Source: Leucoraja erinacea
Taxonomy: Eukaryota
DNA length: 64,000 bases
Reading direction: 5' to 3'
NCBI RefSeq assembly: GCF_028641065.1
Contig: NC_073389.1
Coordinates: forward strand, 43,276,001-43,340,000
Part shown: positions 4,150-64,000 of the stretch, piece after piece
How positions within the stretch are numbered: position 1 is the first letter of the stretch
How the letters are laid out: every line of letters starts with the position of its first letter
The notes under the pieces: model-generated
Databases searched by the model: none
What the model was told of the DNA's origin: nothing
What the model saw: the letters and a program-made list of their open reading frames with translations, nothing else
Program-made: the position numbers and the translations under genes

Positions 4150-4354
4150 TGTGTAGAAAGGAACGGCAGGTGTTGGTTCACACTGAAGTTCGGCACAAAA
4201 TGCTAGAGTAACTCAGCAGGGTAGGCAGAATCTCTGGAAAAAAGGAATAGGTGATGTTTCAGGTCAAGACCCTTCTTCAGTCTAAAAAAGGTCTCGACCC
4301 AAAACATCACCTATTCCTTTTCCTGACCCGCTGAGTTACTCCAGCATTTTGTGT
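4150..4354. mobile_element. Penelope-type (pLTR-derived) fold-back element with hammerhead-like cores
   Basis: Inverted arms; minus-strand CUGAAGA-AGGGUCUUGACCU-GAAAC-AUC at 4251-4280; 15-bp TSD CTGC(A/G)TCAATCCAAG at 4135-4149 / 4355-4369. Confidence 0.75.
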
Positions 4355-4477
4355 CTGCGTCAATCCAAGCCCACTTTCCATTTGAATGAGTGCCCCATGT
4401 GCTCTGATTATGGTCTGCATTTGCAGGACAGTAAATTTTTGTATCTAGTGGTATCAGAAATTACACTGCGTTACAAC

Positions 4478-5053
4478 CATTAGGGGCTCTAACCATCGTG
4501 GAGCTGGCCGGCCGGAGCGTGGAGAGCTGTGGTGCCGCGCGGCTGTGACTCAGCTTCGGAGCTTTGGAGGCTCCAGCCGCAGGCCCGATGGACGGTGACA
4601 CCGGGAGCTCGCGGGTCCCTGGTGGGAGACCGCTTTTCGGAGCTCCCGCCACGGCAAATTCTCCCGCCCGAATTGCAGGGTTGAAAATGACTTGGAGTGG
4701 GGCCTTACATCGCCCGGCATGGCTTTAACGGCCACGGGACTTGCCATCGCCCGCCGGAGGCTCCAACATCAAGACCCGGAGCAGGGCCTTACATCGCCCG
4801 GCACGGCCTTAACGGCCGCAGAACTTGCCATCGCCCGTCAGGGGCTTTAACATCGGAGAAGAATGGAAAACTGGGGAGAGACAATGACTTTGCCTTCCAT
4901 CACAGTGAGGAGGAGATTCGCTGTGATGGATGTCTGTGTAAATTGTGTTAATTATGTGTCGGTTTTATTTTCTTGTTGTATGACTGCAGAAACCAAATTT
5001 CGTTTGAACTTTATTTGAGGTTCAAATGATTATAAATGGTATTGTATTGTATT
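4478..5053 (+). mobile_element. GC-rich non-autonomous retroelement with an internal 85-bp tandem duplication
   Basis: GGGCCTTACATCGCCCGGCA... occurs twice (4699, 4784); 3' part homologous to the 43625 element; (ATTGT)n tail. Confidence 0.65.
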
Positions 5054-7977
5054 ATAGAATAATCCCATTGACCCACCAACATTTTTCCATGCAATCGAAT
5101 TCCCCACATTTCCATCAACTCTATCCCCTTCCCACCTGCTCCAGATTCTACCCTCATCAGCTCTACTAGCTGCACCACCCGTGCCACTTAAAGACTGCAT
5201 TGAGGACTAAAGTCATGCAAATTATCATAAAAACAGATGATGACATTCATAAAGAAAAGATACAAATTAACTCAATTTGATTATGGACAAGAAGTATTTT
5301 AATAAGCTATTGAATTTTTCAAGTAGACCAATCACGCAAACTGAAGAAGGGTCCCGACCCAAAGCACTGCTCATCCATGTCCTCCAGAGATGCTGCCTGA
5401 TCCATTGAGTTACTCAAGCAATTTGTGTTCGAGGGAAGACTACAGCATCTGCAGTTCCATGTGTTGCCAAGCCAACAAATGGATTTTGGTTTACCACTAA
5501 TTTAAATGTTAATAATTGTTAATTACTGAAATAAACATTTAAAGTTATTAATTTACTAATATTACCAATTACTTTAACCGTTCTATATATTTTCTGATTA
5601 CTATAACTGATTTGGCACCCACTGATTTAATTTAAGTACAATATGACTGCAAACTGGGAAAATAAACTGAGAATGAAGAGACAATTTAATAATAATCCAT
5701 GATCTGTCATGTCCTTTTGATGCTGAATTTGTTGTTACCAGTTTATGTGCTTGACTTCGCTCAGTCAAAGACAATGAGAAGGTTTTGAGCCATGTCTTTA
5801 TGCTTCTTTCTTCATCATCACTGAAAAGAAATAAGCCAACCATTCCCTAAGTCTATCTGTTGCTTACCCTAATGACACCCAGCCAAGGTTCAAGAGTTCA
5901 GGGTTCAGATCTCTGTCTCTGTATTTTTAGTTGAGGTTCGACACATGGCAGCCTGGCTGGATAGGTTACCTACCAATACATTCTGTTAGTGCATGGAAAT
6001 TTGTACTGTGCGTTCTCAGCTTGGTTTCGTCTGGAATTTAAGGTAGAATGCTGTTGCAACTTAATTTGCTGCAAATTGCACAGTGTATATTTGAATTCCA
6101 TGGATTCACCTATACTAACTGAAATTATAAGATGCTCACTATGCTCTGAATCAATTATACAGTACGATTCCTTTCAATTTGATGTTCTCATGAATCTTGA
6201 GGAATTTTTTGCCTTGTGATTGTTACTCACTAACTGTAAAGTGCTTAAACCTATTTGTCAGTCCAGCATAGAGATATTGTTACAAATGATCCATAAGAAA
6301 ATAATTTTAAAAACACTTTCAACTAGCTCGAGAATGTGAGAAATCTGAGATTCTACTTAGCAATTGTTTATTTAAATTTCAGGTCATTATTCCTAAGAAT
6401 AAAGTTCTATTTTATCCATTTAATAATTCTCTGTGAAGTTAGCCAAATAGGATTATCTGAATGTCACCAGTGATCTGTTTATGCCAGATATGTATGTCAT
6501 TGACTTTGACCAAATTAGTAATACAACATATATATATAGAATAATCATGTGTCTTAGGAATCTGATTATTGCTAACTTACTTCAAACTAGTAAATGCAGT
6601 AACCTTCTATAATTAAACTATATTTAATTAGAAAGTATAGCTTTATCTTTCACTTTGCAATGATAAAATAAATATTTAGAGACGTGAACACCACAACAAA
6701 AGCTTAAGAAAATGATTCATAAAACAAAAAAATTAAACAGCCGTGTCTCTGGTCTTTTTTCAGTAAACTCATGATTATTGGGCATAATTAATGTGTCAGT
6801 TATTCCACTGTCTTTGTGTGATTATATCAGTAAATTTCATGGCAGTTTGTCGTAAAACCCGGTGACTGACAGGGTACTGGGTACTTTGCCTTGCAGAATT
6901 TTGCTATATCAAGGAAGAAAATTACATTACATGAGAGTTAGACTGGCTGCAGTAGAGCTGTACTTGGAATAAAGCCGTGCAAATGTGATATTGTCAGATT
7001 TTCATTGCAGGCATTAAAAACCTTTTATACCATATATACTTCTAATTCTATGTTTATAAAATAAAATCTTTTCTACATCTTCACCAATTGCATTCAAAAG
7101 ATCTTCACAGTAATTTATATCTTCATCGGAAACTGGGCATTGATATAGGGGTGGATAACATATAGCATGTAAGAGGAAGAACTGGCATGTCCTATTACGC
7201 TTGCCTGATCATTTTGACCCTCAGTCTACAAGCATGAGTATCCTTCCTTCAGTACTTGGGAGTAAGTTCTGGTCACTCAGGCAGCATTAACTTTGAAAAA
7301 ATGACCCGTCTGCACCCAGACAAAAACAGAATCTCCCTTTTCTGTGTCGCCAACACCCACTTTATTCTCCTCGATTCAAGACTCCCCACGTAGATAGAAT
7401 TGTTTGACCAGCTCCGCTTTGCACAACTTAATTAACCAAAGAGAAAGTGTCAGTTTCTGCCAAATTGACAACAACAAAACTGCAGGGAGAAGAGCCATGC
7501 TGCATTAACCAGAAATCCAGCACTATTCACAAAGAGACAGGAATTCACTATGGTATAGAAATCCGCTAAATAGATCCAAGAGTTTGATTTGACACAGTGT
7601 GGTGCAAGTCATGTTTTCTTTCACAACCAGTGACAGTGCACCTTAAAGTACTACCTTTTTACCCCAATTTCAACTACAATATAGTAGTTTGCACGAATGT
7701 GGAATTAACAGATATTTATACATCTTAAGAAAATTTGATTTTGTCCCTTTCTTTGAAGTATCGTAAAGAGGAAGGAGGTGTCTGAACAATCAGTGGAAAT
7801 TCTACTGTGACTAATGTCTACATTCTTCACCACCCACCCCCAGCTTAGCCAACAGGTGACAATGTTCCATAGAGTAAGATGGATGAGGTGTCACTTCTTG
7901 CCCCAGGCAGGATGCTACATTCAGCTTCAAATTCCTGGGCCTTAAGATCTCATATGAATTATCCTGCGCCCAGCGCA

Positions 7978-8290: not shown

Positions 8291-8313
8291 CACAAAGATC
8301 TTACTTCTCCTTA

Positions 8314-8539: not shown

Positions 8540-8830
8540 TTAGGCTTCATCATCTTCTCTACAACCTGATAATTAACAGAAAACCTCAGATGGAAATAAA
8601 ACGGCCGTTCTATCAATCAATCAATAAAATGGTGTCTCGGTACATTGGTGAAAGGACGGAGATAAATCTGTGCAATGTTTTTAAAGCAGAAAAACTGGCT
8701 TTCTTCTTGGGTACTACTGAATTGAGAAAGACTTGATTCCACTGTAGCACCATGTGATCTCAGGTGATTGGCAAGAAGTGTAGGGTCTGCAGCCTTTGTT
8801 GCAATTGAGATAGATAAAGCTTGATGAAGT

Positions 8831-9013
8831 CTTTAAGAAGGAACAGCAGATGCTGGAAAATCGAAGGTAAACAAAAATGCTGGAGAAACTCAGCGGGTGC
8901 AGCAGCATCTATGGAGCGAAGGAAATAGGCAACGTTTCGACCCGAAACGTTGCCTATTTCCTTCGCTCCATAGATGCTGCTGCACCCGCTGAGTTTCTCC
9001 AGCGTTTTTGTGT
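8831..9013. mobile_element. Penelope-type fold-back element, near-perfect hairpin
   Basis: 69-bp arms 8871-8939 / 8943-9011 with one mismatch; perfect 14-bp TSD AAGCTTGATGAAGT at 8817-8830 / 9014-9027. Confidence 0.85.
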
Positions 9014-10710: not shown

Positions 10711-11084
10711 AACGGAAAATACCTATCAAAACCGCCAATGTGCTCAGCTACAAATCTTGAGGATATCACAAGAGGAAAGCCTATTACCTTCGAATAGTCT
10801 GCTAAATTCCAATTTTCCGAACGATGATGTAAACTTAGGAATACTCAGCTAGTCAGGTTACGTGAGAGAGAGACAGGGATAGAAAGTACTCATTCAAGGT
10901 ACTCATGAGCATATTGAAGAGGAACCTTTGGTTCAATGTAAGTGCAGTAAGCATTGCATCCTTATACATTGCAAAATAATTCTTAGCTGATCCCTAATCA
11001 ATCATTATTTGAGTGGCCTATTCTGTAGTACTCAGTAACATCCTGTGCTGTGTTCCATAAACCCATGACCATTTAGTTAGGATG

Positions 11085-11278
11085 TGGCTGCAGATGCTGG
11101 TTGACAAAAAAAAAACACAGCTAGGCAGATATTTAAATAAGTCAGCAGGTCAGGGGGCATCTCTGGAGAACATGGGTAGGTGACGTTTCGGGCCTGAAGA
11201 ATGGTCATGACTTGAAAAATCACCGATCCATGCTCTCCAAAGATGCGGCCTGACTTGCTGAATTACTCCAAACTTTGT
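11085..11278. mobile_element. Penelope-type fold-back element (degenerate)
   Basis: Family motifs GCAGATGCTGG...GCATCTCTGGAGAA...GACGTTTCGG plus an inverted arm; TGACCATTTA direct repeats on the flanks. Confidence 0.65.
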
Positions 11279-11599
11279 GACCATTTATTTATGGTTAGGT
11301 ACTCCTGCACTGATACTTAATTAAAAAAGAATCAGGCAATAGACGTTTCTAATCTTTTTAATTTCTAATTTGCACCACATTCCCATGTTACTTTTCCTAA
11401 TTGTCGACCAGGAAGTACACAACTGCCTACCAGCATCTTAGTTTAGTTTATTGTCACGTGTACCGAGGTACTGTGAAAAGCTTTTGTTGCGTCCTTACCA
11501 GTCAGCGCAACTTTGCACAAACCTAGAGTTCCTTGTCTTAAGCCTACTTGCATGGTGATTATCTGCTGGAGTTACAACTGTCACTCAGAAAAACCTTAG

Positions 11600-13020: not shown

Positions 13021-13164
13021 CAATGGTCTGGAAATTCTATTAATCTGTTTGTTAGTTGTTGCCTGACAAAGATCAAAAGTGATTTATTATGGTTTGGTGA
13101 CTGATTGATCTTTGCTCTTCAATCAAGAAAATTATTCATTAGGAAATCACATTCTTTGATCACA

Positions 13165-13357
13165 TGTGTTGGAAGGAACTGCAGATGCTGGTTTATACCG
13201 AAGATAGACACTAAATGCTGGAGTAACTCAGTAGCATTTCTAGAGAAAAGGAATAGGTGATGTTTTGGTTTCTGTTCCGACCTAAAACGTCATCTATATC
13301 TTTTCTCCAGAGATGCTGCCTGACCCACTGAGTTACTCCAGTGTTTTGTGTCTATCT
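13165..13357. mobile_element. Penelope-type fold-back element
   Basis: GGAACTGCAGATGCTGG...GAGTAACTCAG arm and inverted CTGAGTTACTCCAG arm. Confidence 0.7.
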
Positions 13358-16300
13358 CCTTTCATTACATATTTCCTTTGGAGTCCTTGGTTGGAGACAT
13401 GGGTGGCTCTCTTGGAATATTCATGATAAGAAGAATTGCAGCGCCCAGGAGATGTGAAAACTTGTGTCTTACTTTGTACTGTCTTAAAGTCTTAATGACC
13501 ACGTCAAAAACTACTTGTATTTACAGCAAATGCATAAGAGCAAATAACATGAAGGTTTAATCCTTTGTGAGTTTTTTAAATGGAATATGCAAGAGATAGC
13601 CTTGCAGTAAGGCATTTTGTTTTCTGCTGGGCATTGGAAAGATTTCCATTTTTCGCACTCCAAAGATATCCAGTGATTATAACGTTTTGATGACAATTTA
13701 CCGCTTTGAAATGGTTGTAGGTATCTGTCCCAACTCCAAGCCCTCTGAAACAAATACCGGGTAATTTCTATGATATTTACAAAATGTGACGTTGCGTTAA
13801 AGACTTGAACTTTATTGTGTCATAACTTAAATCCTGCCACGTGCTCTTTTTGTACTTTGTCAGTAGTTTTAAATAAGTTGTAATCATTTTGGAACAAAGG
13901 CAAGCAATGAGATATTCTGGAAAGAAAATATCACAATGAGTGCAAATACCTGGTGTGGATACCCAATTCTACATTTCTAAAATCATACTTTTCTCACTTT
14001 TGTGTTTGAAAATAAATAAAACCCGAGCAAAGATGCGCTTTTCTTTGTATTTCCTTATTTCTTTCAATGTTTTTCTTATTTTTCTCCACACAATCTTCTC
14101 TGTAACTGATTTATCCTAAGCTCGTTGAACTCCTCAGAAAGTTAAGTACATCACAGACATTTTTAAGCAAATTGTGACCATTTATTTTAAAATGGAAATA
14201 AGCCTGATTATATCTGGTGTGTTCATTTCTCCCCTGACAAGCTGGAAGTTCTAAGCAGCAGTACACAAATTCAACATTGTGATTAATAACTTGGGAGCTG
14301 CCTCAGTTTGATAGCTTGCTCTTGTTGGTGGAAATTTATGGCTTGGTACTTCCTCAGCAGGACTTCCCACGTTGAATTGATGCACACTGTTGACCCTTGT
14401 GTCCAACATGGGGGTTTTACACAGATGTCTGGTAACTGTGGAAGGTGCAGAAATCCAGAAGACGAACTTGCAACTGAGCTATTATACCCTGGTAGTTAAC
14501 AAAGGTCAGAAGAAGGACTCTGCAAATGTCTGTGACACTGTGTTTCACTGCAGTTTGTTTTTTGATTAGCACAGTTCATGCCCAGGCCATCCCACCTGAA
14601 TAACAATCAGCCCGATTCAGAACATAACTACAGCAACGAAAGCGATAAACATTTGTCGGAATAAAGCTTTGGGGATTTGCAGGATTAAAATCTCCTGAAG
14701 CTCACCAGGAAGCTCTGTGAAAATTAAGAAGGAAGACATTGGAAGAATATGAATTCCATATTTTCTGATCAACATTTGCATTTGTAGAAAGTTTAATAAT
14801 CCATACAGCGAGACAAGTTAAAACAGCTGTATGTTAATGTTGTGGCAGATTGCACATTCCTCCATGTCTTGAAATAGTTATCTTAAATCACATATGTTTC
14901 AGGTGGAATTAAGAAATCCTTTAAATCTCACTTAATATCCAGCAACATTCTTTGTTCCTTTTTTTATCCAACATATTCTGTCCTGAGCATATGCCAATTA
15001 CACTTATTCTTCTGTTTCATGCTGGCTTGGCTGTTAATTGTTTTATTTCTAATTTCTCAGTGTAGGGTTCACAAAAATATATATATATATTAATAATTGG
15101 AACCGTTCTCCAACCATACTTTTAAACATTGTGTTATGAATTTGGCTAAATCACCATATAAAAAAGTTTGAATGTTATGGGCATGTGAGCACATTTTGAG
15201 TTGTCTGGCAAAAGCTGTAACAGGAATCAAACACTGTTAACATTATCTCATTACTCCAGAAGAAATATAACAGAAGAAAATGTTTCAACTTCCTGGCAAT
15301 ACAGTTGCCACATATTTTAAAGAACATGATCTGATCAGGCAGAATGTATTGCACCCAAATAAAAAAAATAGAAATGCGTACGTATAACAAATGTTCCTTA
15401 TATCATTTGATGATTATGAATTGATTTGCTACAGTTGCGCATTGACAGGGTGTTATCAATGTTAACTTAATTCAATTTTTATGACAAATTTTAGGATTGA
15501 AAATGCAGAACCAGATTACTTTTTTTGCTCCCAAACATCCCTTCTTTCTTTTCTGAAAATGAAGCCGACTGGATTACAGTTCCAGTAAAGACACATTACT
15601 CTCCATGTATTTAGAAAGGAGATCATATTTCAGGATAAGCTGTATATAATGTCTTGGAAAACTTCATGGTAAATTGCCATCCAGTATTCCTTCAACATTC
15701 ACAAAAGATTGCAATGTTGTGATATTGTTGCTGAATTACTAACTGCATTTGAGATTTAATGGAGATTATTTGTGATGTTCAATTTAAAGAAAAGTTCCCT
15801 ATCACCCTTCAATGAATGGTGACCATTAAAACAATAATACATAATAGCCATTCCTTCTCTCCAGTGGTGCTGCCTGTCCCGCTGAGTTACTCCAGCATTT
15901 TGTGTCATCTGCAGTTCTTTCCTACACATTCCAATACATAATAGTGATGTGCTTGGTTGCAACAGCCTGAATCTGAACTCAAAACAGGCACAATCAACAC
16001 TTAACCCTAGTCTGAAAACATGCAATTTTTTCCACATACTGACCAGACCAGACCTATATTAAAATATAATAGTTTTAAACACCATAATTCACAGCCTGTA
16101 ACACCAAGCAAACCATTGCGATCTGAATACAATACTGAATGCTTCTTCAGAATATATACCCCACCCTGACCTAAACAACCAGTCCCACCCTACTTGGGTC
16201 AAGTAGCTACACGCTAGAATACATTAATTAAAATTGTGATTATTATTATTAAAGCAGCAGCATTAATAAGATAACAGTAATAATTATTTATTTGAGTAAT

Positions 16301-17730: not shown

Positions 17731-17775
17731 TTGGAGAACTCAACACCACCCCTCCCCCCTCCTTCCTATTTTTAG

Positions 17776-24113: not shown

Positions 24114-24165
24114 GGGGTCAAGGAAAGAGCGTTCATGTCGTGGCCCTGTGTTCACCAATCTTTCC
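24114..24165 (+). ncRNA. Minimal HDV/CPEB3-like self-cleaving ribozyme fold
   Basis: P1 GGGGUC/GGCCCU (G1.U wobble), P2 GGAAAGA/UCUUUCC, P3 GCG/CGU, L3 UUCAUGU, GU after P1, vestigial P4, J4/2 C-C-A-A. Nested double-pseudoknot order is correct. Confidence 0.7.
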
Positions 24166-25869: not shown

Positions 25870-26505
25870 TAGATAAAGACACAAAGTTCTGGAGTAACTT
25901 AGAGGGTCGGGCAGGTTCTCTGGAGAACTTGGATAGATGACGTTTCAGGAGGGGACACTTCAAGTCAAGTCAAGTCAAGTCAAGTTTATTTGTCACATAC
26001 ACATACAAGATGTGCAGTGAAATGAAAGTGGCAATGCTCGCAGACTTTTGTGCAAAAGACAAACAACAAAACAACCAAACAAATTATAAACACAATCATA
26101 GCACACATATTCTTTTACATGATAAATAATAGAAGGAAAAACGTTCTGTAGAGTTAGTCCCTGGTGAGATAGGCGTTTACAGTCCGAATTGCCTCTGGGA
26201 AGAAACTCTTCAGGCTGATCGGGGGTAAGGAGGGGCAGGACAAAACTGGGCAAGTAATAATCCTTGTCCTTGCCAGGCTTTGTTCAGCCCCTCCAAGCCT
26301 GCCCCTCGTTGCTTATCGCTTGCCAGGCATTGTCCTGCACATCCACTCTTCCAGCTTTCATCTCCCCCACCCCAATCAGTCAGAAGAAGGGTACCGATCA
26401 AAACTGTCATGTATCCATGTTCTCCAGAGATGCTGCCTAGCCCGCTGAGTTACTCCAGCAACTTGTGTGTCTTTTTGTAAAACAGCACCTATGGTTCTTT
26501 ATTTC
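25870..26505. mobile_element. Long Penelope-type fold-back element with a nested Rex1-type 3' end (about 25961-26207, minus)
   Basis: Inverted family arms at both ends; the insert carries a (CAAGT)n tail and closely matches the 3' end of the Rex-type copy at 48215-48480. Confidence 0.7.
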
Positions 26506-27880: not shown

Positions 27881-28696
27881 TTCAAAGCCGACAATCTGTA
27901 ATACATTTCTAAAATAAAAAGATGCATGCATGTAACTGATTTATTTTAGCAGGAGTGCAAAAACCTGCAATCATTCTGACCCGATTGTCTTCACTTTATT
28001 AGCGTTCTCGATGTGTATTTTCTTTCGGTGACACCGAGGCATGTTTTGTTCACCCTTCCCCGCCACACCCCCACGCCCCACCCCCACTAATAACTTAGAA
28101 GGGAAATCCCAAATAAACGAATGTAAAAGCCGATAAAGTCACATCCCCGCGATACCCAACGATCCCGCAGCAGGCAGACAATCTTTTTGACGCCATAATC
28201 TGTTTGGTCCATTACCACCATTTGGACACTTGGTACTGTGCTTGCTTGGGAGTCCAATTGCTTCAGTGATCATCCGTTCGCGTACAAAATGCTGGAACGT
28301 GGCCTGCGTTGTCGATTCACGGTTTAGTGCAACCTTGGGTCATTAACATGCGGGTACAAGTTACAAGTGCTACAGCCCAATGTGCTCCCGAGCTGTTACC
28401 AAGAGCTTGCAAGGACATTATCCCTAAATGAATTCGTTCCATCCTTCGGAGAGCTATTAGACATTATTGAACACAGATTAAATTAAAGATAGACACAAAA
28501 TGCTAGAGTAACTCAGCGGGTCAGGCATCACTTCTGGAGAAAAGGAATAGGTGACGTTTCGAGATCCTTTAACGTGGCATCTCCGGAGAAAAGGAAAAGG
28601 TGACGAAACGTTTTCCTTTTCTCCGCTGGGTTACTCCAGTATTCTGTGTCTATCTTCGGTGTAAACCAGCATCTGCAGTTCCTTATCACAAAGAAT

Positions 28697-29303: not shown

Positions 29304-30324
29304 GAATAAATACAACTCATTATTATTTAACATAATCTGTCATTTTGAAACGGTGCGAATGTACAAGCTTGTTATACACTTGCTGGTCAAGTTGAATTGT
29401 TAAACCAGAATGTATTTGTACCACTTAATAACAAAGTAGATTTTAATTTTTATCATGCAACCTCGCTGAATTTTGCAATTCCACTGCGCTGGTGTAATAT
29501 CCATCCTTTAATTGAGGAATCCGCCAGATATCTTCACCACTTTGTGTGAGTGAGCTGTTGTGTTGGTTCCACCTACACATTAGTGTTGGTGAAAGTATTC
29601 GAACAAACCTATCTAAAAACAGATAGACCCAGATCGTTCCAGTCCGACCCGAAACGGCACCTATTCCTTTTCTCCAAAGATGCCGCCTGAACCGTTGAGT
29701 TACTCCAGCAATTTTGGCGTATCTTCGGTAGAACCCAGCATTTGCAGTTCCTTCATAGACACATTTAAAACCTGAATTATCTGCCCATCCAAATTTCAAT
29801 TCATAGAAGTAGTATCTACGACACCTAGTAACGCAATACATTCCAATACATTAATAAAAACAAAACGTTTCTCCCAGATATGATCGTGATTCTGCACAGT
29901 TCTGCATTGAACACATTCACTGTACATGTCTGTTTTGAAGGCAATAGTTAACAATCTCGTGGAGGTGCAGCTGAACGTTTGACTTGAGGTTCATTTGGCG
30001 CCTTGTCATGTCTCAGATTCTACGCAATTTTCTCTATATTTTATTTTGTCATCATTGCATAAACTTTCTGGTGTGCATGAATTTTGCCTTCTAAAGTACT
30101 TCCCTATTTTAGGATGTTGCTGGCTGATGTTCGCCGAATGTTTTGCATTCTACGTTATTTTGTGAGTATGGTGTCTCTAAAGTGATATGATCAACGTCTT
30201 CGACCAGTTATCTAGAGAACCAGGCATTCCAACATCGTGTACGGATTTACACCTACGGTCTTGGTGATTGTTTTAACCTTTCATCTCTGTAATGGTACTC
30301 TGTTTGGTCAAGTAAAGACGCTCT

Positions 30325-37783: not shown

Positions 37784-40299
37784 CGCACAGTCACCTTGCG
37801 ACTTCTGGTAGGTTTAAAATATATTCATCCAATGCACAACGGGAAAAGATTCACAACGGCCAGTGTGAAAAGACATCGAAATCATATTGGATCTCGCTAC
37901 GACAGTCCTGGGCAACTCGTTTTTTTCGCGGCAAAGTGAGTCTAGGTCGCCTACGATTGTAATTTAAAACATTGGACCTAGTGCCAGGTTGAATGACCAG
38001 TGGTCAACCTTTGTCAGGCACAGGGAACCTATATTTTAAAACGCGCTGTTGACCCATGTGATATTCCATTTTATATAAAACACAGCGTGCTTCAAAAAAC
38101 TGGAGCGTCTTGGTACAAATGAAGCATTTCATTTAAGTCTGGTTAATTTATAACATGCAGGTCCAGTGTTTATTTCAGAGGAAACAGGACAACTGGCAGG
38201 CGAAGGGAACGTTTCACTCAGTTTGAAAAGATTCCTGTTTTCTCATTTTGAGAGAAGCCGTCTCCAATGTTGGGTGCATTTAACCTGAAAACAAGCCTTT
38301 GAAAGGCACAGAAGAGCGAGTGTACTGAGGGATGCAAAGGATAACAAAGGTGCCAGTGAAGTCACTTCCCTGCATTGGGTCCAGCCATCCGCTTTCTCCA
38401 TGGTCCCATTGAATGGACAGAATGCCGCAGGAAGATGGAGAATTAAAGGGAACAAACCATCAATGCACAGTCAAAGGAGAAGAGGCGGCAGCACATGAGC
38501 GGATATCTGCTTCACTTTCACTCCCAGTCTGGCACACAAAGGGGGCTTCTGATGAATTATGGAATATTCCTGGCGCCAATGAAAATGGCCTCGGAAGATG
38601 CTAAATGGGGGAAAAATAAGACTACTATTATTATCACGAGGAAACATAAAAGGGAGCTTTTGGGAAGGAAAACTGCAAGAAAACAAGAAAAAAAAAAACA
38701 ATGTCTGCAAATAAACAAATAACATTGAGAAAGAAGGACGTGAAGTGCTGGAGCAACTGAGTGGGTCAGGCAACACCTCTGGAGAACATGGATAGGTGAT
38801 CCTTCTGGTCGGGACCCTTCTTTCGACTGTGCCTTGTTTTGTAAACCAACATCAGTAGTTTCTTGTTTCTAAATAATATAGATAATGTCACTGCAGGCCA
38901 TGGAGGCATAATCATAGCGCTGAAATAGGCCCTTCGGCCCAACTCATTGATGCCCACCAAGATGCCCCGGCTGGATGGTAATCATTATTTCAATTCATTT
39001 TCAGGTGTTTAAACAAGCAAACAATATCTATCCTAAATGTAGACATAATTGAATTTATAAATAAATTACTTCTGTTGAATGCCTCCATTGCTGCATCAGA
39101 ACATTGTGATGTTTAATGTGAGTACAGTATTTAAACATAACAAATGTCAAGAGCTGACCATGAATAGAGATTGTGCCATCATTTTCAATCAGACACCTTG
39201 CAGAGATGTTTGTTTATCCCTAATTTAACCAATAGTGGGTTGATGGATTAGAAACTCAGTTGCCCCTCTGGGCTTGTGCGTGGCTTTTGCATAGCCTATC
39301 CTTGTGGCTGGAGTGGTTCAATGTTACTGCGAAGATAGACACACCAAGTTGGAGTAACTCAGCGGGGCAGGCAGCATTTCTGGAGAGAAGGAATGGGTGA
39401 CGTTTGGGGTTGAGACCCTTCTTCAGACCTGCTTTGCACTTCGCAAGGTGGACCCTCTTAATGATCACTTTTCATGCATCTGATGCAGTTGTTGGCAATT
39501 AAGCTTAATGTTCTGATTTTAGCATTTTATTGACTGAATGATGATGACATAGGAGCAGTTTTTTCCATACATACATTCGAACAAAACTCAAGCAGGAGAA
39601 ATTGCTAATTAACATTTATATTATTCCTAAGACGGCTTGAAGGGCTGAATTGTAAAATGTTTAGAATTTCAAAGAAATCCCAGGAATCATGAATTGGATA
39701 CTCTAGTAATTGGTTATTGTCTTTCACTCTGTCATTGCCTGCATCTGTGTTCTCAAAACATTTTAGTTCTACTGTATGACTATCACAGTTGGATTCAGAA
39801 GGCCGACAGTGCATCATTTGGCTCAGCATAGGCGATGCCATTAAAAAAGCCACCAGTCCTCATTAAAATGCCGAACACCTTCACCCATTCATTTGAAACA
39901 GTTTATGTCTTTCTGCTTATAATGCTTTTTCCACTCTGCCATGGACTGCAGAGCCATCAATTAAGGGGCCATCAATTAAAGTTACATGCCAGGAATTCGC
40001 AAGTGAGCGATGAAAGCTTTGCTTTGCAGACAGAATAAATCGGATGGCACTTTGTTATTTCTCTTCTATTGGTGCAGTAGTGGAAATAGTGAAATTAAAA
40101 AAAATAAATCATATTTTCTCGATATCAGTTTTATGTCACACCATGATTTGTCTTCTCCTACTTAGACAGTTCCTCAGGTTAAGGATAGTTTCTTTCCACT
40201 CAACTTCTCTGGGTTCTGAGATGGCTGATTTGGTGAATGCAACAGATGGGACAGGAAGCACTTCATGAGGCAGTGTGAGGGACCAGTGGGAGGAGATCT

Positions 40300-41100: not shown

Positions 41101-42232
41101 TGGAGTGAAGGCAAACACTGTTGAACAACTTACTATTTATCCTACATACTAGTTCCACTTCTGTGCTAAGTTTGTTGAGGGATGAGGCGCAATATTGTGG
41201 CGAAAAAGATTTAAAAAAAATAATGTCAGGGTCTTGCTGATTAATCCATTGTCTTACTTTCCACCATGTAGCAGATGGAAAATGGTGACAAATATACGTG
41301 TAAAGTGAAATTGGAGAATGACTCCCCCCAATTCCTCTCAATGAACAAAGTCAATGGATTTTGTAAGATCAAAAGAGCTCTGAATATATTATATATGGAC
41401 ATATTTTAAAATTTAATAAAATCTTATTTGAAATTAGAAACAAAAAAAATGGCCGCTGCTAATCACCCGTGCATCTTAGTTGTTTTACTTATCCCGTGAA
41501 GACACACACAACCAGTATCCATGAGGAAAGGCTCCCTTTCTTCACATTCAGCTAGAAACTTAAACCTTTGTATCTACTGAGAATTGTGTACACCTTCAGC
41601 CTCTTTTTCAATTCTCTCATATTCTGGGAATTGCCTCATATGACAACTACTATTATTTTATTAAAATCAGTACTGTAAGAACATTTCTCAATTGGTGCAT
41701 GGGATTGAAAAAGCATGTGATGCATAGGTTATAGGAATATGAGACAGGATCTATGTCAACAAATCTAGTAATAAAAATGAATTGCAGATGCTGATTTATA
41801 CTCAAGATAGACACAAATGTTGGAGTAACTCAGCAGGTCAGGCAGCATCGCCGGAGAACATGGATGGGTGACACTTCAGTTGGAACCCTTTGCCTTGTCT
41901 TCATTATTATGATTAGCATTCTTCTTATTATTATCTTCCTCATCAATATTATCCAGTAAAAACAAAATCACTTATTCATCTTTAATATAAATCTCCCATT
42001 CCTCGTTATCCTCCGAGAACCATTTTATGTGAAGGGTCTGCGGAGAGAGTAAGTGAAGGAGACACTTACTGTAAATGAATGGAAGCGAAACTGCTGTTTT
42101 TATGGTTTTTAACCACGATGGAGCAGAATGCTTTTATGCAGCTCTGTGGTCTGTTCTGCATGGGGTGAAACTCAATGAAGCCTGGAATGGTCTTTCCAGT
42201 CCATTAGTCTTTGCTTGCTGGTAGTTATAGGG

Positions 42233-46420: not shown

Positions 46421-47797
46421 CAAAACATTGCAAAATGTCTTATTTAATCCCAAACATTGGTCAAAGAAAGGGATATTAATTGTTCAGAAAATCGGTTGCA
46501 TCAGTGTCTCATTATACTTCACTCATTTAATTCAAGATTGAAATCAATGCCAGATTTCTATCTCTCCCCTCCCTTCCCCCTCCCTACAACCAGTCTGAAG
46601 AAGGATCTCGACCCAAAATATCACCTATCCATGTTCTGCCTGATCCGCTGAGTTACTCCAACACTTTGGTCCCAAATGTAACTGATGGAGTTGAAACCCA
46701 GAGACACAAGCCCATCTGCAGAAAGTACAAGCAGTCCCTTGGGGTTCAGCTGTCTGTCAGTAGATGGTTCTTTGCCTTCCCTTTCTCTTCTTGACTTTGA
46801 GGACAGCGTGCATGTAGCTAAAAGTAGGCCATTGACTCACAGAAGGTATGATGTCATTTGAGCGGACCAACAACTTAAACTTCTCACAACTTGTGATGCC
46901 TGAGCTTGAGTCTGCTTGTGTCTTCAGCTTGAGTCTGAAGAAGGGTCTTGACTCGAAACATCACCTATTCCTTTCCTCCTGAGATGTTGCCTGACCCGCT
47001 GAGTTACCACATCATTTTGTGTCTATCTTTGGTGTAAACCCGCATCTGCAGTTGCTTCCTACACATTGTGATGTCTATATCTGTTTAAGTGAGATATATT
47101 CTCAGAATGTCTTTATAGAATTATTCAAGAGTCAAGATGAGAGTGTTTTATTGTCGTAAGTACAGTAAACAGAACAACGGAATTCTTATTTATTTTGATA
47201 AGCACTGGCTCTCAAAGGTTTAATGGTACTTTATTACCACATGTGCTGGGATACAGTTAAATTGTTATTTGCATTCAGTTAAGTACAAGTATTACTATAC
47301 CTAAGCACATCTTAGATACAGTACAAATGTATAGAAATAATACACTGAGACAGCAGACAAGCGTCGTCAGGTTTGGTACTATTTTCAAGTCCCAGTTGTT
47401 GTAAGTACAGAGTTCTTAACCTGGCCATGAAGGCCTGTTGTTATGGCAATGTTGCAGGGTTGGCCTGGCCAAGCATAGCCATAGGTGTCCTCCACCACTC
47501 CTTAAAGCTGGAGGTCGCATCTGGTCTGCGTGCTTGGCCTCTTGGAGCGGCACCCGATCCAGCCTCCAGTGGCTCATGCCACCGCTGAGGTGTACTGCAT
47601 TGCCTCCTGCAGCCGGTCTGCTTACCGGCCCTCTATTTCTCACGTCCACCACCACGATTGACATTTTAGACATCTTTTCCCACCTGTCTGGGCCTCGAGG
47701 CCGAGCAGGGAAGTGATCGATGGCATGTCACTTGGGGATGATCTGTTACACGGCACCGTGGTTGCCTCTCTGACCATTGGTCACTACATTATGTGCA

Positions 47798-51779: not shown

Positions 51780-52030
51780 CCAGACATGTATTTAAACTGA
51801 TTTGAAGAAATAGAGCTGAAACACATTGTGTTCACTCCCCAAATGCCCAAGTGTAGTTCTATGTACATTATGACAGTGCTGGAGTAACTCAGCAGGTCAG
51901 GCAGCATTCATGGAGGGAAATAATATTATGTCAATCAGAACTGATTAAAGTAAAGATTTGAAAATTTGATCATTTTCGGTCAAAACAAAGAATGTTTCTA
52001 TGATTCGGTCAAAATAAAGAATGTTTCTTC

Positions 52031-52064
52031 GGTCTGAAGAAGGGTTTCAGCCCGAAACGTTACC
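52031..52064 (+). ncRNA. Minimal type I hammerhead ribozyme core (Penelope-type)
   Basis: GGU-CUGAAGA-A-GGGUU(UC)AGCCC-GAAA-C-GUU-ACC; 3-bp helix I GGU/ACC. Confidence 0.6.
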
Positions 52065-52174
52065 TATTTCCTTCGCTCCACAGATGCTGCTGCACCCGCT
52101 GAGTTTCTCCAGCATTTTTGTGTACCTTCGATTTTCCAGCATCTTCAGTTCCTTCTTGAACAAAGAACGTTTCT

Positions 52175-57575: not shown

Positions 57576-59173
57576 TTATGTACACAAACATTAGCAATAC
57601 AGGTAGAAGCATTAAATAGCACCTGAGACTCACCATATTATATATACGTTCATAGGGCAAAACTATGTGACAGACTACTAGATTACAGTAATACTGTTTG
57701 ATGTTCCATGTCATTGTACATGTGGAGCTGATTATAGTTTAAGTGAAATGTGATGTATTGTGTGGAGATACGGTATAAAGTAAAGCAAGGTGTCTGTAGA
57801 TAATGCAGTCAAGCAGACCCACTCATGCCTTCCTTGATCTCGTTTGGCATATCAGCATCATGATTTATACCATCTCCATGAGGTAGCAAGATGGGGACTC
57901 TTGGCACACAGAGTCCCTGCACATCCAGATGGAACTGAATGAGCATCATCCAAAAATGGATGTCATCCAAGCATTAATATTTCAATTATCAGGAAGTGGT
58001 TTGTTATTTCAATTCCTTAAGAATAGTCAAGCAGAAATTTGAATTTCTTTCAAATCGTCTCCAAAGATTATTGGATAAAATCATTACAAATAAAATCTAC
58101 GTGATGTCCCATACCCAGTGTCATTTAAAATTCAGCTTGACATTATAATCTAGACAATCACACACACCTACACGTTTTGAAACAAATTATAGAATTAACA
58201 GTTTTACTGTAATGCATCAAATGTTACATTTCTATCCCAACAGATTTATTTCGGGACAGTACCAAGTCCACTTAAATATAATTGTGCAGTTTCAAAATGT
58301 AATTCATATCAATGCTGTCAATTAGAGGACTTCGGGTTGTAGTTAATTAATCAGGAAAAGGAAGTTTTTGTTTCGATAAAGCTGACCAAATGTCAGTAAA
58401 ATATTTATTTGTGACATTTAGCACGAGTGATAGAACATGTAGTAAGGTGTCAATGATGGAGAGATGCAGAAATAATCAACACACTCCCTCCAGCCCTCAA
58501 ACACGATTCAGAATCTTCAACAGGCAAATGGGAAGGGAATGTCTTCTAAGCTCCCTTTGACTCGATCATATCTTCGGACTGTTAGCTTCAGCGGGGCTGT
58601 AAAAGCGACGATAAGAGATAAGCTTCCTTCTCTGCCCACTCTGTGATTAGTAATATCTCACCTCGCATGTAAAATGAGTTTGAACCACATTCTGTGCAAC
58701 TTCTTGTAGGCTTTGATCTAACACATAAAGATGGACAATTTGGTCATCGTGGTTGACATGTTTTTTCAAAACGTTTTTTTTTCTTTAACATGCTAAACCC
58801 CCCTCCCCCCGTCTTTTGGGGGAATTTATCTGAAACTGATAGAGATATCACAGGTAGTAAATTTACTCAGCTCACTTCAATGAAACTCCGTCTGCCTGAT
58901 CTGTTATACATCCTCGTGAGCAGCATCATTTGAACAGTTTCTGTTGTATGAAACTATGGTTCTATCATTGATTTGATTAGTGCTGGTGTCAGGGGTTATG
59001 GGGAGAAGGCAAGAGAAGGTTGAGAGGGAACGATAGATCAGCCATGATTGAATGGCGGAATAGACATGATGGGCCAAATGGCCTAATTCTTCTATCACTT
59101 ATGGACATAGTTTCTGCAGATGTTTGTATCTGAAAGCGATTTCCTTGAATTAAAGAGATGTATTTCTTCCTGT

Positions 59174-59350
59174 GTAGGAAGGAACTGCAGATGCTGGTTT
59201 AAACTGAAGATGGACATAAAAAGCTGGCGTAAGTCAGCAGGACAGGCTGCATCTCTGGAGAGAAGGAATGGGTGAAGAGAAAATATCACTCATTCCTCTT
59301 CAGAGATACTGCCTGTCCCTCCGAGTAACTCCAGCATTTTGTGTCTATCT
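59174..59350. mobile_element. Penelope-type fold-back element
   Basis: Inverted arms; 15-bp TSD TGTATTTCTT(C/T)CTGT at 59159-59173 / 59351-59365. Confidence 0.75.
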
Positions 59351-61594
59351 TGTATTTCTTTCTGTAAAGCTTCAGAATTTCTACTGAGCAAGTGAAGATA
59401 ACTTAAGAAGAGTGTACTGCTATAAGAATAAACAAGCTAGTTATCCGAGCTAGTGCAATAATATATCTCTCCTCGACGGAGCTGTTCGAGTGTGTTTTTA
59501 TACAATAAAGAGCAATCTTGAACCTGTTGCTGCCTGTCCTGCTGAGTTACTCCAGCATTTTGTGTCTACCTTCGATTTAAACCAGCATATGCAGTTCTTT
59601 CTTACCCAGAAAATGATTGTTTCCCTGACCTGGAATATCAAGATAGTGTGAAAATGGCAACAGTGTACAGAGAATGACAATCACATTATCTCTTCAAAAT
59701 AAAGTATGTATTATTTATGGTGTAATTGTCAAACTTTCGTGGGTAAAACCACGTTTATGTAAAAAGTGGGCCAACATAAAGAATCTTACAAGGTGTAGGA
59801 ACTGACAGATGAACAAACAAACTTATATTGAAAGTATTCCTTTCACTTCTTCAATGCAAAATCACAAAACAGCTCAAAGACGGTGGTCAGTTTGTCTTCT
59901 GGCTGTGTGTTTTTTTTTAAATCTGACATTGATGGATTCACTTCTTCCAAAGTACAAGCTAAGGAATATTCAAAGCAAGGGACACACTTCTGGTTGAAGA
60001 GGAAGAGCCACACATTCAGGCCTACACAATTGTATTGACTTTGGCAGGACTAGAAAATGATGGATGATGTGACAGACTTCAGATTTGGCAAACAGGAGAG
60101 TTTAATCCCCCCTTAGGCTAGCCATGTGCATGCCACTGAGTCCCCTGGTGTGACGGGACACTAGAACAAAGTGTCAGGGTGGCCCAGATAATAATCGCAT
60201 GATGCATTGAGGATTAAACTCTAAGGCTGACCCAATATTCATGAGTCGGGGCTAATGCTGATGTGAAAATGATTCTGAGGAGTTTGTCAAGACATCTCCA
60301 ACAAGTGAAGACAAATGACGGAAAGAAAAATCTAAAGTTAAACATTAGAATGGGTATGAATGGGCAGGTCCAGAGATCAGCTTGAATTTGTTGACATCCA
60401 TCGTGGTGGCCTCCTTGCATCTTGGGTCCATTTCACTATTATTCCATGCAAAATCCTTGAAATAAAAACATATATAATGTTCTTTTCTATTATAATCTCA
60501 ACAATGACAATACGTTAAAGAAATAAACCTAATCAATTTCTGTTACCTTCGATAGATCGGTAGAAATTCTGAAGCTGCACGGGACGGAATACGTCTCTTT
60601 AATTCAAGGGACTCGTTTTAAGATGCAAAAGACTACAGAAACTAGAAGTTCATGTCATTTATGTTCAATACTACATCATACATGCTCATCGCAGGCCATT
60701 TCTCGCATGATTGTCACAGAATCGAGAATTTCATGATAATAAAACAAAAATAGCATTAAAAAAACATTAAAGAAGTCTTTTTAGTTCTATGCACTTTGAT
60801 GCATTTTAATTGACTTAATATGAAATATTTGCTGGTGTAAGCAAATGTCGGAAATTGCATAGCGGCATATAACTACCAAGACTGCAGATTGTGTGTCTGT
60901 GCCACACTTGATTTGTTTATCAATGGCCCACTAAAGCTCTAACCCTCTTATCGTGAAGTAAGGTACTTGCACCTTTCATTCCCCCAGCCCGGTCCATAGA
61001 GCTTTAGAATCAATGAAATATTTTAAAGTGTATTCACCCTTTGAACATAGGAAATATAGTAGCCATTTCTCGCGACCGCGTCGTGATAATGAGCAGATAA
61101 TATGTTTTTGCGAGGCTGTTTGAGGGATAAACACTAGCCAGAAGATCAGGGAGAATACTCCTACTCGTCTCTGAAATAATGCCAACGGCTCTTCCACATC
61201 GCAGCGAGAGAGCAGATGGAGCTTTGGTTTACCCGTTCATTTGAAAGTCAGAACCTCAAAGATTGCAGTTTACTTAATAGATAACACCAGTAATAAAAAA
61301 AACAGCGTGAATTTCCATCCTCTCGTTCTGGCAGGGAAGCTTACCTGCGGAGTGTATAGGAAATTCAGGCACGTGCCACGCTTGATTAATTTTGCTCATT
61401 TACCGAATGATTAGACAGCGCTGGGGACAAACATATGTTTCCAATCTTCAACCCCCACAGGTGAGGTTAGCTCACGGAATGGTGTGTGAGTGAGTACACG
61501 TACAACGCCGGAAAGAACGGCTCACATACTCTTCCAATGGGCGGCTGCAAGCAACGATAATCCAATTTGCAGTGAGTGATTGAACGTTACTCGT

Positions 61595-61758
61595 TGTAGA
61601 AAGGAACCTCAGATGCTGGTTATATACCGAAGATAGACACAAAATGCTGGAGTAACTCAGCGGGTCAGGCTGATGAAGGGTCTCCACCCGAAACGTCACC
61701 ATCCCTTTTCTCCAGAGATGCTGCCTGTCCCGCTGAGTTGCTCCAGCACTTTGTGTCT
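61595..61758. mobile_element. Penelope-type fold-back element
   Basis: Family arms in inverted orientation around a hammerhead core. Confidence 0.75.
61670..61697 (+). ncRNA. Minimal hammerhead core inside a fold-back element
   Basis: CUGAUGA-A-GGGU(CUCC)ACCC-GAAA-C-GUC; no obvious helix I. Confidence 0.5.
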
Positions 61759-63258
61759 GTAGCCAATGGAACGTTGTGTTGGCCGAAGGCCGCAATGGCA
61801 GTAATAAAAGAGAATATATTGGACACCTGAAAAACAAAATTGGAATCAATGGCTGGGTTTGGTTGAGTTGTGTTTTGTTTATGTGAAACTCTCTTGGAAT
61901 CTAATAAAAACCTAAATGCAGCAATTCACATTTTCTGAGAGGGAAAAAATGACATTAGGTCAAAATAATCTTAAAAAACTAGATTTGATTATTGTAAATT
62001 AGCAAATACACAATAAGTACCCATTAATCTGTTTTCAATCTTTGCGGTAATACTGAGATTTAAGGCCAGGATCCGTGCCTACAGTTTAAACTGCAGGAAG
62101 ACAAAATTATTTTTTACAAAACCAACAAAAGGCGGAATCAGGAATCTGACGGTAAAATACAGAAGGACTCGCATTGCAGGCAGCCTATGTGGAGTAACAA
62201 ATAAGGCATCATCCGAAGAAGGGTCTCGATCCGAAACATCGCCGACCCATGTTCTCCGGAGATGCTGCTGGTCTTGCTGAGTTACTCTTTTTGTCCTGAG
62301 CACTTTTTGTCCTTTAGTGTATTGACAAGCATCTGCAGTTCCTTATTTCTGCAGCCGACATTTCATGCCGGCGATCTGTCAATGAAACGTCCACTACATT
62401 GCTCGGCTCCGATATGACTGCAATTTTAACCCCAGATCACATCATGATCGCCCTATGCCACATTTTCCTGTAACAATAACAGCGGAACCATATAACCATA
62501 TAACTCTTTACAGCACGGAAACAGGCCATCTCGGCCCTTCTAGTCCGTGCCGAACACTTACTATTACGTTTGGCCATCATTATTCGCTAAAACTAACGCC
62601 AGTTTTTTGGGATGTAAACTGGTGTAGACTGGCCCCACTCCCCCAATCTTTGCACATCCCCAATCCCGGATTTACCACTCGTCACTTTAATTTCGTGTAT
62701 CTTGTTGTGTTTTATGACTCGGTAAACCAATTTCCCGCCTGGTTTTCAGGTTGAAATACAAATTGTTGTCGGTGGCGGTTCAATGCCCTTCCACGGTAGC
62801 CTTTCCGCCACAGTTATGGGGAAGTTATACGAATTACCCTGAAGTTTGGGAATTTGGTAAGTAATCCCATTTAAAACAAAAGTTCTACGTCTTGTGGCGG
62901 TACGTCGGCGAGTTTTCAAAAAACACATTCTTGTTTAGAGCTAGATAGGGCTCTTAAAGATAGCGGAGTCAGGGGGGTATGGGGAGAAGGCAGGGGGGTA
63001 TTGATGATCACCCATGATCACATTGAATGGCGGTGCTGGCTCGAAGGGCCGAATGGCCTACTCCTGCACCTATTGTCTAAATTAATAAATAATTACTGCT
63101 TAAAAACTTTTAGGCTCTTCAAAAACGTTTATTACAAAAACGTTATAGTAAGCGCTTCACTTAAGTACCTTAAAATGGAAAGGTATTTAAACGATCAGAT
63201 TTTGAAAATAAGGCCATACTTATTAGTTTATGTATTGAATCGTTGAATGCAGCATTAA

Positions 63259-63597
63259 ATCAGGCCCTTCAGCCCACTGAGTCCATACCGTCCATCGATA
63301 ACTATGTTATCATACTTCCTACACACTAATAAAGACAATTTACAGAGGCAATTTAACCTGCTAACCCACACGTCTTTGTGATTTGGGAGGAAACTGGAGC
63401 ACCCGGAGGAATCCCATGCGGAAAACGTATGGAACCCACAGAGGGGTCAGGATCGAAGCACAGATCCGTGGCGCTGCGAGGCAGCAGCTTTCCCAGCTGT
63501 GAGGCAGCGGCTCTACCAACTGCGCCATTGTGCTGCCCTTTGTATAGTTCCACTGCGACATGAACCAATTTCTTCTGTTCCATTCGCAACTTCGCCG
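63259..63597 (-). mobile_element. HE1-like V-SINE
   Basis: Reverse-strand A box (ATGGCGCAGTTGGTAGAGC), B-box-like segment and core GGGAGGAAACTGGAGCACCCGG. Confidence 0.8.
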
Positions 63598-63829
63598 CAC
63601 TGATTCTGAGAATTCTTTACCTTGTTTGGTCTCTCAATTGGCTTAGAGTCTTCACCTTTGAACCGAAGGAGGGGAATCCTAGTCTCAAAAGACTAAAAGA
63701 CTGCCATGGAAAGGGATTGAACCAACAACAGATTTTTTTTTGTGTGGAGAGCTACGCTGTAATTTGAAAATGCTGGAAACACTCAGCACGTCAGATACCA
63801 TCTGCGAGGGAGGAAGAGTTAAACATGGC

Positions 63830-64000
63830 AGATCGACACAAAAAGCTGGAGTAACTCAGCGAGACAGACAGCATCTCTGGAGACGCTTCTTCTCGATCCA
63901 AAACGTCACCTATTCCTTTCCTCCAGAGATGCTGTTTGACCCGCTGAGTTAATCCAGAATTTTGTGTCTATCTTCGGTTTAAACCAGCATCTGCTGTTCC
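63830..64000. mobile_element. Penelope-type fold-back element (runs to the window end)
   Basis: GCTGGAGTAACTCAGC...AAAACGTCACCTATTCC...CCGCTGAGTT...AAACCAGCATCTGC. Confidence 0.7.

What the first reader, a model, noticed from the sequence alone, without database searches (positions are those of the whole stretch)
4150..64000. About 25 dispersed Penelope-type elements carrying a minimal hammerhead core
Seen: the commonest repeat here contains CTGA-N-GA-A-[GGGT..hairpin..CCC]-GAAA-C-(G/A)T(C/T). N varies (A at 52034 and 46935, C at 30436, T at 61670), as hammerhead position 7 allows, and helix II stays paired across subfamilies (GGGUC/GACCC vs GGGUU/AGCCC). Many copies are fold-backs with 11-16 bp TSDs. 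Further copies lie near 5341, 15850, 28490, 29620, 32915, 35630, 36440, 38740, 39330, 41780, 46590, 59525 and 62210. Established: Penelope-like elements carry minimal type I hammerheads with tiny palindromic helix III that cleave as dimers, and an extra A after A9 occurs naturally in the CChMVd hammerhead. Inference: a very high-copy non-autonomous hammerhead family. Most copies have mutated or missing cores and helix I is only 2-3 bp, so many are probably dead.
Basis: partly seen in the sequence, partly recalled or inferred. Interest (0 to 1): 0.7.

Follow-up and report, generated by a model that had tools for sequence, protein, structure and literature searches.

The report
Penelope retrotransposon stubs with minimal hammerhead
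The repeat is the 95-135-letter end piece of a known kind of jumping gene (Penelope-like), with an estimated million copies in this genome; it carries a known miniature self-cutting RNA motif that is broken in most copies, and the short copies are likely by-products copied from uncut RNA of the full-size element rather than a separate family.

Summary
The repeat is real and undercounted: 44 hits at 35 loci in the window. Genome samples give about one million hits, 4.3% of the DNA. It is the terminal module (minimal type I hammerhead plus optional ~35-nt tail) of Neptune-type Penelope-like elements. Longer copies run upstream into GIY-YIG and RT coding sequence, and a young subfamily keeps ~800-aa open frames with partial-tandem and inverted pLTRs. 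The extra A, missing helix III, fold-backs, one-sided tail and TSDs are all published PLE traits.

No evidence was found for a separate non-autonomous family.

The one informative feature: 5' ends pile up 0-8 nt before the core, not at the cleavage site, with a tenfold coverage step. Stubs were therefore copied from uncut RNA, likely as run-off products from the upstream pLTR. Cleavage was not tested. The scan has noted this family many times before (119 notes in this genome), including this idea.

The parts
52027..52164 (+). Complete stub of the young B subfamily: intact minimal hammerhead 52034-52061 (U17), downstream module and tail; begins about 5 nt before C3; 14-bp TSD (12 of 14 scored)
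30321..30429 (+). A-type stub, no tail, core damaged (15.1 A to G); upstream partner of the only head-to-tail pair in the window
30431..30558 (+). C-type stub with tail; intact core 30436-30463 with C7, predicted to misfold into an extended hairpin
61595..61761 (.). Head-to-head fold-back: minus arm with tail (starts at model column 69), plus arm with intact core 61670-61697 (U7, predicted misfold)
46926..47066 (+). A-type stub with tail; core boxes intact, helix III palindrome lost (16.2 G to A)
4149..4360 (.). Fold-back, tail on left arm only, 15-bp TSD (14 of 15)
8830..9013 (.). B-type fold-back joined inside helix II, tail on left arm; exact 14-bp TSD at 8817-8830 and 9014-9027
11077..11284 (.). 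C-type fold-back, 14-bp TSD (13 of 14)
13164..13357 (.). Fold-back, tail on left arm, no core; no TSD at threshold
28477..28692 (.). Complex fold-back of three pieces, tail on right arm
36406..36586 (.). C-type fold-back without core; candidate 11-bp TSD (10 of 11)
59170..59352 (.). Fold-back without core, 15-bp TSD (14 of 15)
63828..64000 (.). Fold-back cut by the window end
35623..35820 (-). Longer copy: module plus about 108 nt of the parent's pyrimidine-rich 3' UTR; the seed that led to GIY-YIG-bearing copies
26372..26503 (+). Old C-type copy preceded by a pyrimidine-rich stretch (about 48 nt aligned to a parent panel)
15846..15929 (+). Stub that starts about 2 nt after the predicted cleavage site, with tail and exact 12-bp TSD; the only such TSD-bounded case seen
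5335..5465 (+). C-type stub, core damaged
32908..33011 (-). A-type stub, C3 mutated
38731..38832 (-). C-type stub, core damaged
39324..39429 (-). A-type stub, G12 mutated
31842..31984 (-). B-type copy with helix II region replaced by other sequence
46587..46674 (+). Stub with internal deletion, core damaged
62211..62348 (+). C-type stub, core damaged
29644..29761 (+). Stub starting inside helix II, with tail
41773..41890 (-). C-type stub starting at about model column 21, with tail
59528..59609 (+). 3' fragment with tail, no hammerhead
2065..2149 (+). Further fragments lie at 17055, 22694, 25874, 30641, 30743, 51873, 54631, 55527 and 63767

Best explanation
The repeat is the hammerhead-bearing terminal module of Neptune-type Penelope-like retrotransposons in this genome, and the short copies are likely dead-on-arrival by-products made by the element's own RT/GIY-YIG protein from uncut RNA. 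SHOWN: the module closes long RT-GIY-YIG copies and also opens them in partial tandems; stubs have two fixed 3' ends about 35 nt apart; 5' ends pile up just upstream of the core; TSDs are mostly 12-15 bp; inverted pairs are always head to head with the tail on one arm. INFERRED (about 55%): a partial-tandem master is transcribed from near the conserved TCAGT just before the core. The protein primes at a nicked target on the 5' module, which alone carries the downstream sequence, and runs off the RNA 5' end after 95-135 nt, like a strong-stop product. Copies that continue upstream give the ordinary 5'-truncated long elements. INFERRED (about 60%): fold-backs arise when both nicked strands prime, one at each start site, and the two cDNAs join head to head, often through the palindromic core; this would explain why they keep TSDs more often. 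The ribozyme is likely weak, dimer- or protein-dependent, and not used to make these templates.
For: Parent link: GIY-YIG C-terminus upstream; 456-aa RT-EN frame ending about 110 bp before the module, L098; 753-844-aa frames with RVT_1 E 3e-6 to 1e-5 and GIY-YIG E about 0.005. Young family: median identity 97.7% over 171 pairs of 19 selected copies; partial tandems in L127 and L134; long inverted arms of 98-99% in 6 of 20 loci. Two 3' ends: histogram peaks at model columns 105-115 and 140-146, matching the two RT start sites that define the tail in the Anolis element (PMC11167929). 5' ends: 269 of 495 hits reach C3, only 21 start at columns 39-48 around the cut site; coverage of the young element falls from 63 to 6 just upstream of the module; TSD-bounded single copies mostly start within about 8 nt of C3. 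Fold-backs: 79 of 387 loci head to head, 0 plain tail to tail, tail on exactly one arm in 60 of 79; TSD in 29 of 67 against 17 of 98 matched singles, p 0.0004. PMC11167929 reports that both strands are nicked and extended, that RNA downstream of the start sites is required, and that uncut RNA is the dominant substrate.
Against: 5' ends are spread over about 8 nt, not one base, so an RT stall at the C-rich tract upstream fits as well as an RNA 5' end. No transcription start was seen: three RNA runs showed no place where many molecules begin or end (these libraries are poorly suited). 138 of 495 hits start inside the core or helix II and 67 further down. The Pfam scores for RT and GIY-YIG are below the curated cut-offs. 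No complete intact master was verified. 13 of 76 fold-backs were assigned arms from different groups by a crude classifier, which a single template would not give.
Confidence: 0.8

Rival explanations
1. A true non-autonomous, SINE- or retrozyme-like family: short copies are themselves transcribed and re-copied by PLE proteins.
For: 189 of 236 core-spanning hits are short. Stubs have their own TSDs and contain both RT start sites. pLTRs alone can act in trans (PMC3846280 passage). pLTR-derived retrozymes exist in vertebrates including one chondrichthyan (bioRxiv 2026.07.22.740005).
Against: No column separates short from long copies after correction and every group has long copies. No fixed 5' end or fixed fold-back junction. 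Head-to-tail pairs are rare: 5 plain pairs among 387 loci, whereas retrozymes are tandem.
Confidence: 0.15
2. Same parent, but stubs are ordinary 5' truncations of the 3' pLTR, piled up because RT stalls at the folded hammerhead or at the C-rich tract just upstream.
For: The 5' ends are spread over several bases, and all groups have a pyrimidine or C tract starting 8-15 nt before C3. A smooth truncation gradient continues upstream.
Against: The tenfold step sits at the same place in groups with different upstream UTRs. Many long copies end without the tail (13 of 19 young copies), so their 3' module would often lack start site 2, yet tailed stubs are common.
Confidence: 0.3
3. Stubs derive from hammerhead-cleaved or circular RNA (the model proposed in PMC4209133).
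For: The core is invariant across 5 subfamily majorities. One TSD-bounded copy (15846) starts about 2 nt after the cut site.
Against: Only 21 of 495 hits start near the cut site and most contain the whole core, which a cleaved 5' end would lack. The hammerhead dimer fold is about 20-30 kcal/mol above the best dimer fold in 6 of 6 copies modelled, with a 2-bp helix I and no tertiary contacts.
Confidence: 0.07

Closest known systems
[quoted passage not shown]
   Same: Core boxes, extra base between 9 and 10.1, G10.1-C11.1, palindromic 15.2-16.2 with no helix III loop, short helix I, mostly dispersed single motifs thought to be truncated PLEs, some close pairs on opposite strands.
   Different: Helix II is 4 bp and helix I 2 bp (Schistosoma: 7-8 and 4-5). 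An estimated 9 x 10^4 intact cores here against about 4,000 in coelacanth and 9,000 in Xenopus, counted with a different descriptor. No cartilaginous fish is named in the parts read.
Neptune-type EN+ Penelope-like elements (Craig et al. 2021, PMC8557442; Arkhipova et al. 2013, PMC3846280; passages read)
   Same: [quoted passage not shown]
   Different: About 80-90% of copies here are only the terminal module. TSDs are mostly 12-15 bp against 8-10 bp in the rotifer examples. No tree was built.
Poseidon of Anolis carolinensis, PAc (Frangieh et al. 2024, PMC11167929; parts 1-2 of 4 read)
   Same: Two internal RT start sites bounding the tail downstream of the hammerhead; both strands nicked and extended; uncut RNA as substrate.
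   Different: Different clade (no linker finger in Poseidon). Here the likely ORF start lies downstream of the tail, not in stem II. Nothing here was tested in vitro.
Non-LTR retrozymes (bioRxiv 10.64898/2026.07.22.740005; parts 1-3 of 5 read)
   Same: pLTR-derived, non-coding, type I hammerhead.
   Different: Retrozymes are defined by tandem units with a hammerhead in each. Here copies are dispersed singles or head-to-head pairs, and the one tandem pair in the window has one broken core.

Membership tests
EN+ Penelope-like element, Neptune type | Single ORF with RT followed by C-terminal GIY-YIG | tested here: met
   RVT_1 then GIY-YIG in 3 of 3 long frames, both below Pfam cut-offs; RT and EN motifs visible in the translation
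EN+ Penelope-like element, Neptune type | CCHH finger with two Cys between GIY and YIG, and CX2-5CxxC linker (absent from Poseidon) | tested here: met
   Both present in P0001, definition from PMC8557442
EN+ Penelope-like element, Neptune type | Partial-tandem or inverted pLTRs and one-sided 30-40-bp tail | tested here: met
EN+ Penelope-like element, Neptune type | Placement in the Neptune clade (versus Nematis) by RT phylogeny | not tested
   No reference sequences were fetched; assignment rests on motifs and on Neptune and Poseidon being the vertebrate groups
Minimal type I hammerhead | Conserved core boxes, extra base after 9, G10.1-C11.1, palindromic 15.2-16.2 | tested here: met
   Invariant in 5 of 5 subfamily majorities; 58 descriptor hits, 0 in control
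Minimal type I hammerhead | Helices I and II supported by covariation | tested here: inconclusive
   Helix II 98.9% and helix I 88.6% paired; only one-sided changes; score no better than shuffles
Minimal type I hammerhead | Core more conserved between subfamilies than flanks | tested here: inconclusive
   0 of 11 core columns against about 14 of 53 downstream columns differ (counted by hand; one-sided p about 0.05). Long downstream stretches are invariant too
Minimal type I hammerhead | Self-cleavage as a dimer or with protein help | not testable with these tools
   Folding alone does not favour the active fold
Non-LTR retrozyme | Tandem repeats with a complete hammerhead in each unit | tested here: not met
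   5 plain same-strand pairs in 387 loci; the window pair has one broken core
Independent non-autonomous (SINE-like) family | Own lineage with diagnostic bases and fixed ends, distinct from coding copies | tested here: not met
   low power for groups B and C

The most novel reading that the evidence does not exclude
The roughly one million stubs are inserted strong-stop cDNAs: they map the PLE RNA 5' end to the TCAGT just before the hammerhead, show that priming occurs mainly on the 5' module of uncut RNA, and imply that full-length copying needs a retrovirus-like jump to the 3' pLTR. This would explain how PLEs regenerate pLTRs, with fold-backs recording priming on both strands.
Probability: 0.35. 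Interest if true: 0.65.

Novelty: new member of a known kind. Interest (0 to 1): 0.3.

Why it matters
As a hammerhead in a Penelope end it is ordinary. Two things have some value. First, scale: about 4% of a 2.19-Gb genome and an estimated 9 x 10^4 intact cores. Second, the insertion record bears on an open question, how PLEs complete integration and rebuild pLTRs (PMC2377424 says no obvious mechanism is known; PMC11167929 leaves later steps unvalidated). A young, near-identical family with long open frames makes that testable in vitro. The scan has already recorded all of this on other windows of the same genome.

Tried and rejected
Rfam scan: no hammerhead family hit; only sub-threshold hairpin matches on fold-backs and a weak CPEB3 match at 24114. 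Window ORFs: none is PLE-coding by Pfam; the RT fragment at 52266-52919 beside the 52027 copy is an unrelated LINE-like piece. PDB sequence search with the RT-EN fragment: 0 hits. Protein Atlas gave no result. Search for a second, unrelated min-hammerhead family in 975 kb: none. Sequencing-run search: no RNA holder listed. The lay of three raw RNA runs showed no start or end pile-up and no canonical splice joint at the CAG before the core among the 15 joints shown (55 not shown); this is inconclusive, so the idea of a 3' splice site there (as in D. virilis) is neither supported nor excluded. The antisense excess in two single-cell runs was not interpreted, since internal priming could cause it. 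Fixed MITE-like palindrome: rejected, junctions differ from copy to copy. Covariation: none beyond wobble changes. Lunse et al. on dimer cleavage could not be read; only its title was seen in a reference list. Literature searches found no paper on this family in cartilaginous fish and none on strong-stop products in PLEs; Repbase, Dfam, subscription journals and the bioRxiv supplements (which list chondrichthyan retrozyme families) were not seen.
Full report
1. Observation. The motif is present at the four cores named, and a profile built from real copies finds 44 hits at 35 loci in the window, including all 13 further positions listed. Reversed sequence gives no hit of 20 bits or more. The module is about 95 nt (core to 3' end 1) or about 130 nt (with a tail of about 35 nt). 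Only 17 hits span the core and 3 of these keep core, palindrome and helix II. Eight loci are simple head-to-head fold-backs and one is complex. TSDs were found at four fold-backs and two single copies.

2. Abundance. The window is G000:C13:43276001-43340000 in a 2.19-Gb genome. The label 'cartilaginous fish' comes from my recall of such repeats and from earlier scan notes, not from a call. In 92 stretches of 10 kb taken at round positions on the large contigs (919,900 bases), there are 406 hits: 4.4 per 10 kb (bootstrap 3.8-5.0), 317 loci, 4.3% of bases. That extrapolates to about 0.97 million hits or 0.75 million loci. 39 of 406 have an intact core, about 9 x 10^4 genome-wide. The window (6.9 per 10 kb) is in the upper quarter, not exceptional.

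3. Parent element. The copy at 35623 carries upstream sequence. Following it leads through a pyrimidine-rich 3' UTR into the C-terminus of a GIY-YIG endonuclease. A protein search gave 105,887 first-look candidates, 150 scored. One of 20 loci fetched (L098) has a 456-aa RT-to-EN frame ending about 110 bp before the module. Its RT part found 150 scored matches at 94-96% identity, many with open frames above 700 aa. I fetched 20 of these, chosen for long frames: 19 had the module just after the ORF, median pairwise identity 97.7%. L127 and L134 are partial tandems (pLTR, tail, 5' region, ORF, pLTR); six have long inverted 5'-truncated arms that lack or differ by the tail. The protein has DKG, YIDD, a CxxxxCxxC linker and CxxC inside GIY-YIG, the Neptune-type signature of PMC8557442 (passages); Pfam scores are sub-threshold. 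This young family is group B, the type of the window copies at 52027, 8830, 31842 and 54631. Groups A and C are older (mean divergence 10-19% against 4%) and also have long copies.

4. The hammerhead. All five subfamily majorities share the core boxes, A7, the extra A and the ACGU palindrome. This is the min-HHR of PMC4209133 (parts 1-2 read), which lists the extra base as a conserved PLE feature, so the viroid analogy is not needed. Helix II is 4 bp with a tetraloop; helix I has 2 contiguous pairs. B differs by U-A to U-G in both helices and has U17. There is no two-sided covariation. Individual copies decay at similar rates in core (6.2%) and invariant non-CpG flank (8.3%), with a selection bias favouring the core. 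However, C7 or U7 lets the first core box pair with the strand around the cut site (probability 0.62 at 30436, 1.0 at 61670), so those two copies are poor assay candidates. In 6 of 6 copies the hammerhead dimer fold lies about 20-30 kcal/mol above the best dimer fold (simple model). This agrees with reports of low activity (PMC4209133) and protein-assisted cleavage (PMC11167929, parts 1-2 read). Cleavage itself was not tested.

5. Ends and mechanism. In 1.06 Mb of unselected sequence (495 hits, 387 loci), 3' ends cluster at two sites, like the two RT start sites that bound the tail in the Anolis element. 269 hits reach C3, 138 start in the core or helix II, 21 near the cut site and 67 later. 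Of 236 core-spanning hits that also extend to column 90, 189 have no parent sequence beyond a few bases upstream. Coverage of the young element is 61-63 over the module, 6 just upstream and then a smooth decline to 1, and 0 downstream of the tail. Short B copies match the parent for 0-7 nt before C3. Stubs therefore contain the whole ribozyme and cannot come from a cleaved 5' end. All groups keep (T)CAGT there, which resembles an initiator (recalled consensus), and D. virilis Penelope has an internal TATA-less promoter in its pLTR (PMC2377424 passages). I infer run-off from the RNA 5' end after priming on the upstream module; RT stalling at the C-rich tract is the main rival. Three RNA runs did not resolve this; their loose ends repeat the genomic boundaries.

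6. Fold-backs. 79 of 387 loci are head to head, none plain tail to tail, and 60 of 79 have the tail on exactly one arm (3 both, 16 neither). Junctions vary, several sit in the palindromic helix II region. TSDs occur in 31 of 76 fold-backs and 23 of 286 singles, control 0.13%; for age- and end-matched sets 29 of 67 against 17 of 98, p 0.0004. Priming on both nicked strands, as PAc does in vitro, explains this. Inverted pLTRs with a one-sided tail and TSD are published (PMC3846280). Arms fell in the same group in 57 of 76 cases, different in 13, unassigned in 6, by a crude classifier.

7. Non-autonomous family? No column separates long from short copies after correction in A (33 long, 123 short), B (8, 24) or C (6, 42). 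Tandem retrozyme organisation is absent. The stubs are best read as by-products of coding masters.

8. Novelty. New member of a known kind. Six literature searches found no description of this family or of strong-stop products in PLEs, but repeat databases and supplements were not seen. The scan holds 119 matching notes in this genome, several with the same conclusions; these are unchecked AI notes, used as leads. Interest 0.3.

Noticed in passing
window 33979-34809, minus strand: Single open frame of 277 aa with a bHLH domain (PF00010, E 4e-15); the sequence looks like an Olig-family transcription factor (recalled, not searched).
   Followed up: partly
window 52266-52919 and 47774-48417, plus strand; 26005-26208: LINE-like RT 3' fragments (RVT_1 and ALKBH8_N hits); 26005-26208 and 48214-48417 are 97% identical in inverted orientation, so a young family.
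   Followed up: partly
window 44057-44527: GC-rich minisatellite with a 38-bp unit, about 10 units.
   Followed up: no
window 20932, 23345, 26649, 28715, 36605, 38912, 42250, 62508, 63247: Second dispersed repeat with a short stem-loop (family D17), probably a CR1-type LINE or SINE 3' end (recalled).
   Followed up: no
window 24114-24147: Weak Rfam CPEB3 ribozyme match (22 bits, E 0.2, model 13-46 of 78), next to a repeat shared with 3186-3278; probably chance.
   Followed up: no
L112:6566-6825: Four tandem 66-bp units of the module starting within the core, a pLTR-derived minisatellite.
   Followed up: no
module columns 62-69 versus 90-97 and about 120-128 (alignment A1): One conserved 8-mer can pair either with a segment before 3' end 1 or with a segment in the tail before 3' end 2; two alternative stems might set the two RT start sites. 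No covariation to support it.
   Followed up: partly
young family B, e.g. L137:6365-6392: The most recently active subfamily has U17 and wobble pairs in both helices, i.e. a probably weaker ribozyme, and its self-complementary stretch grows to 6 nt including A14.
   Followed up: partly
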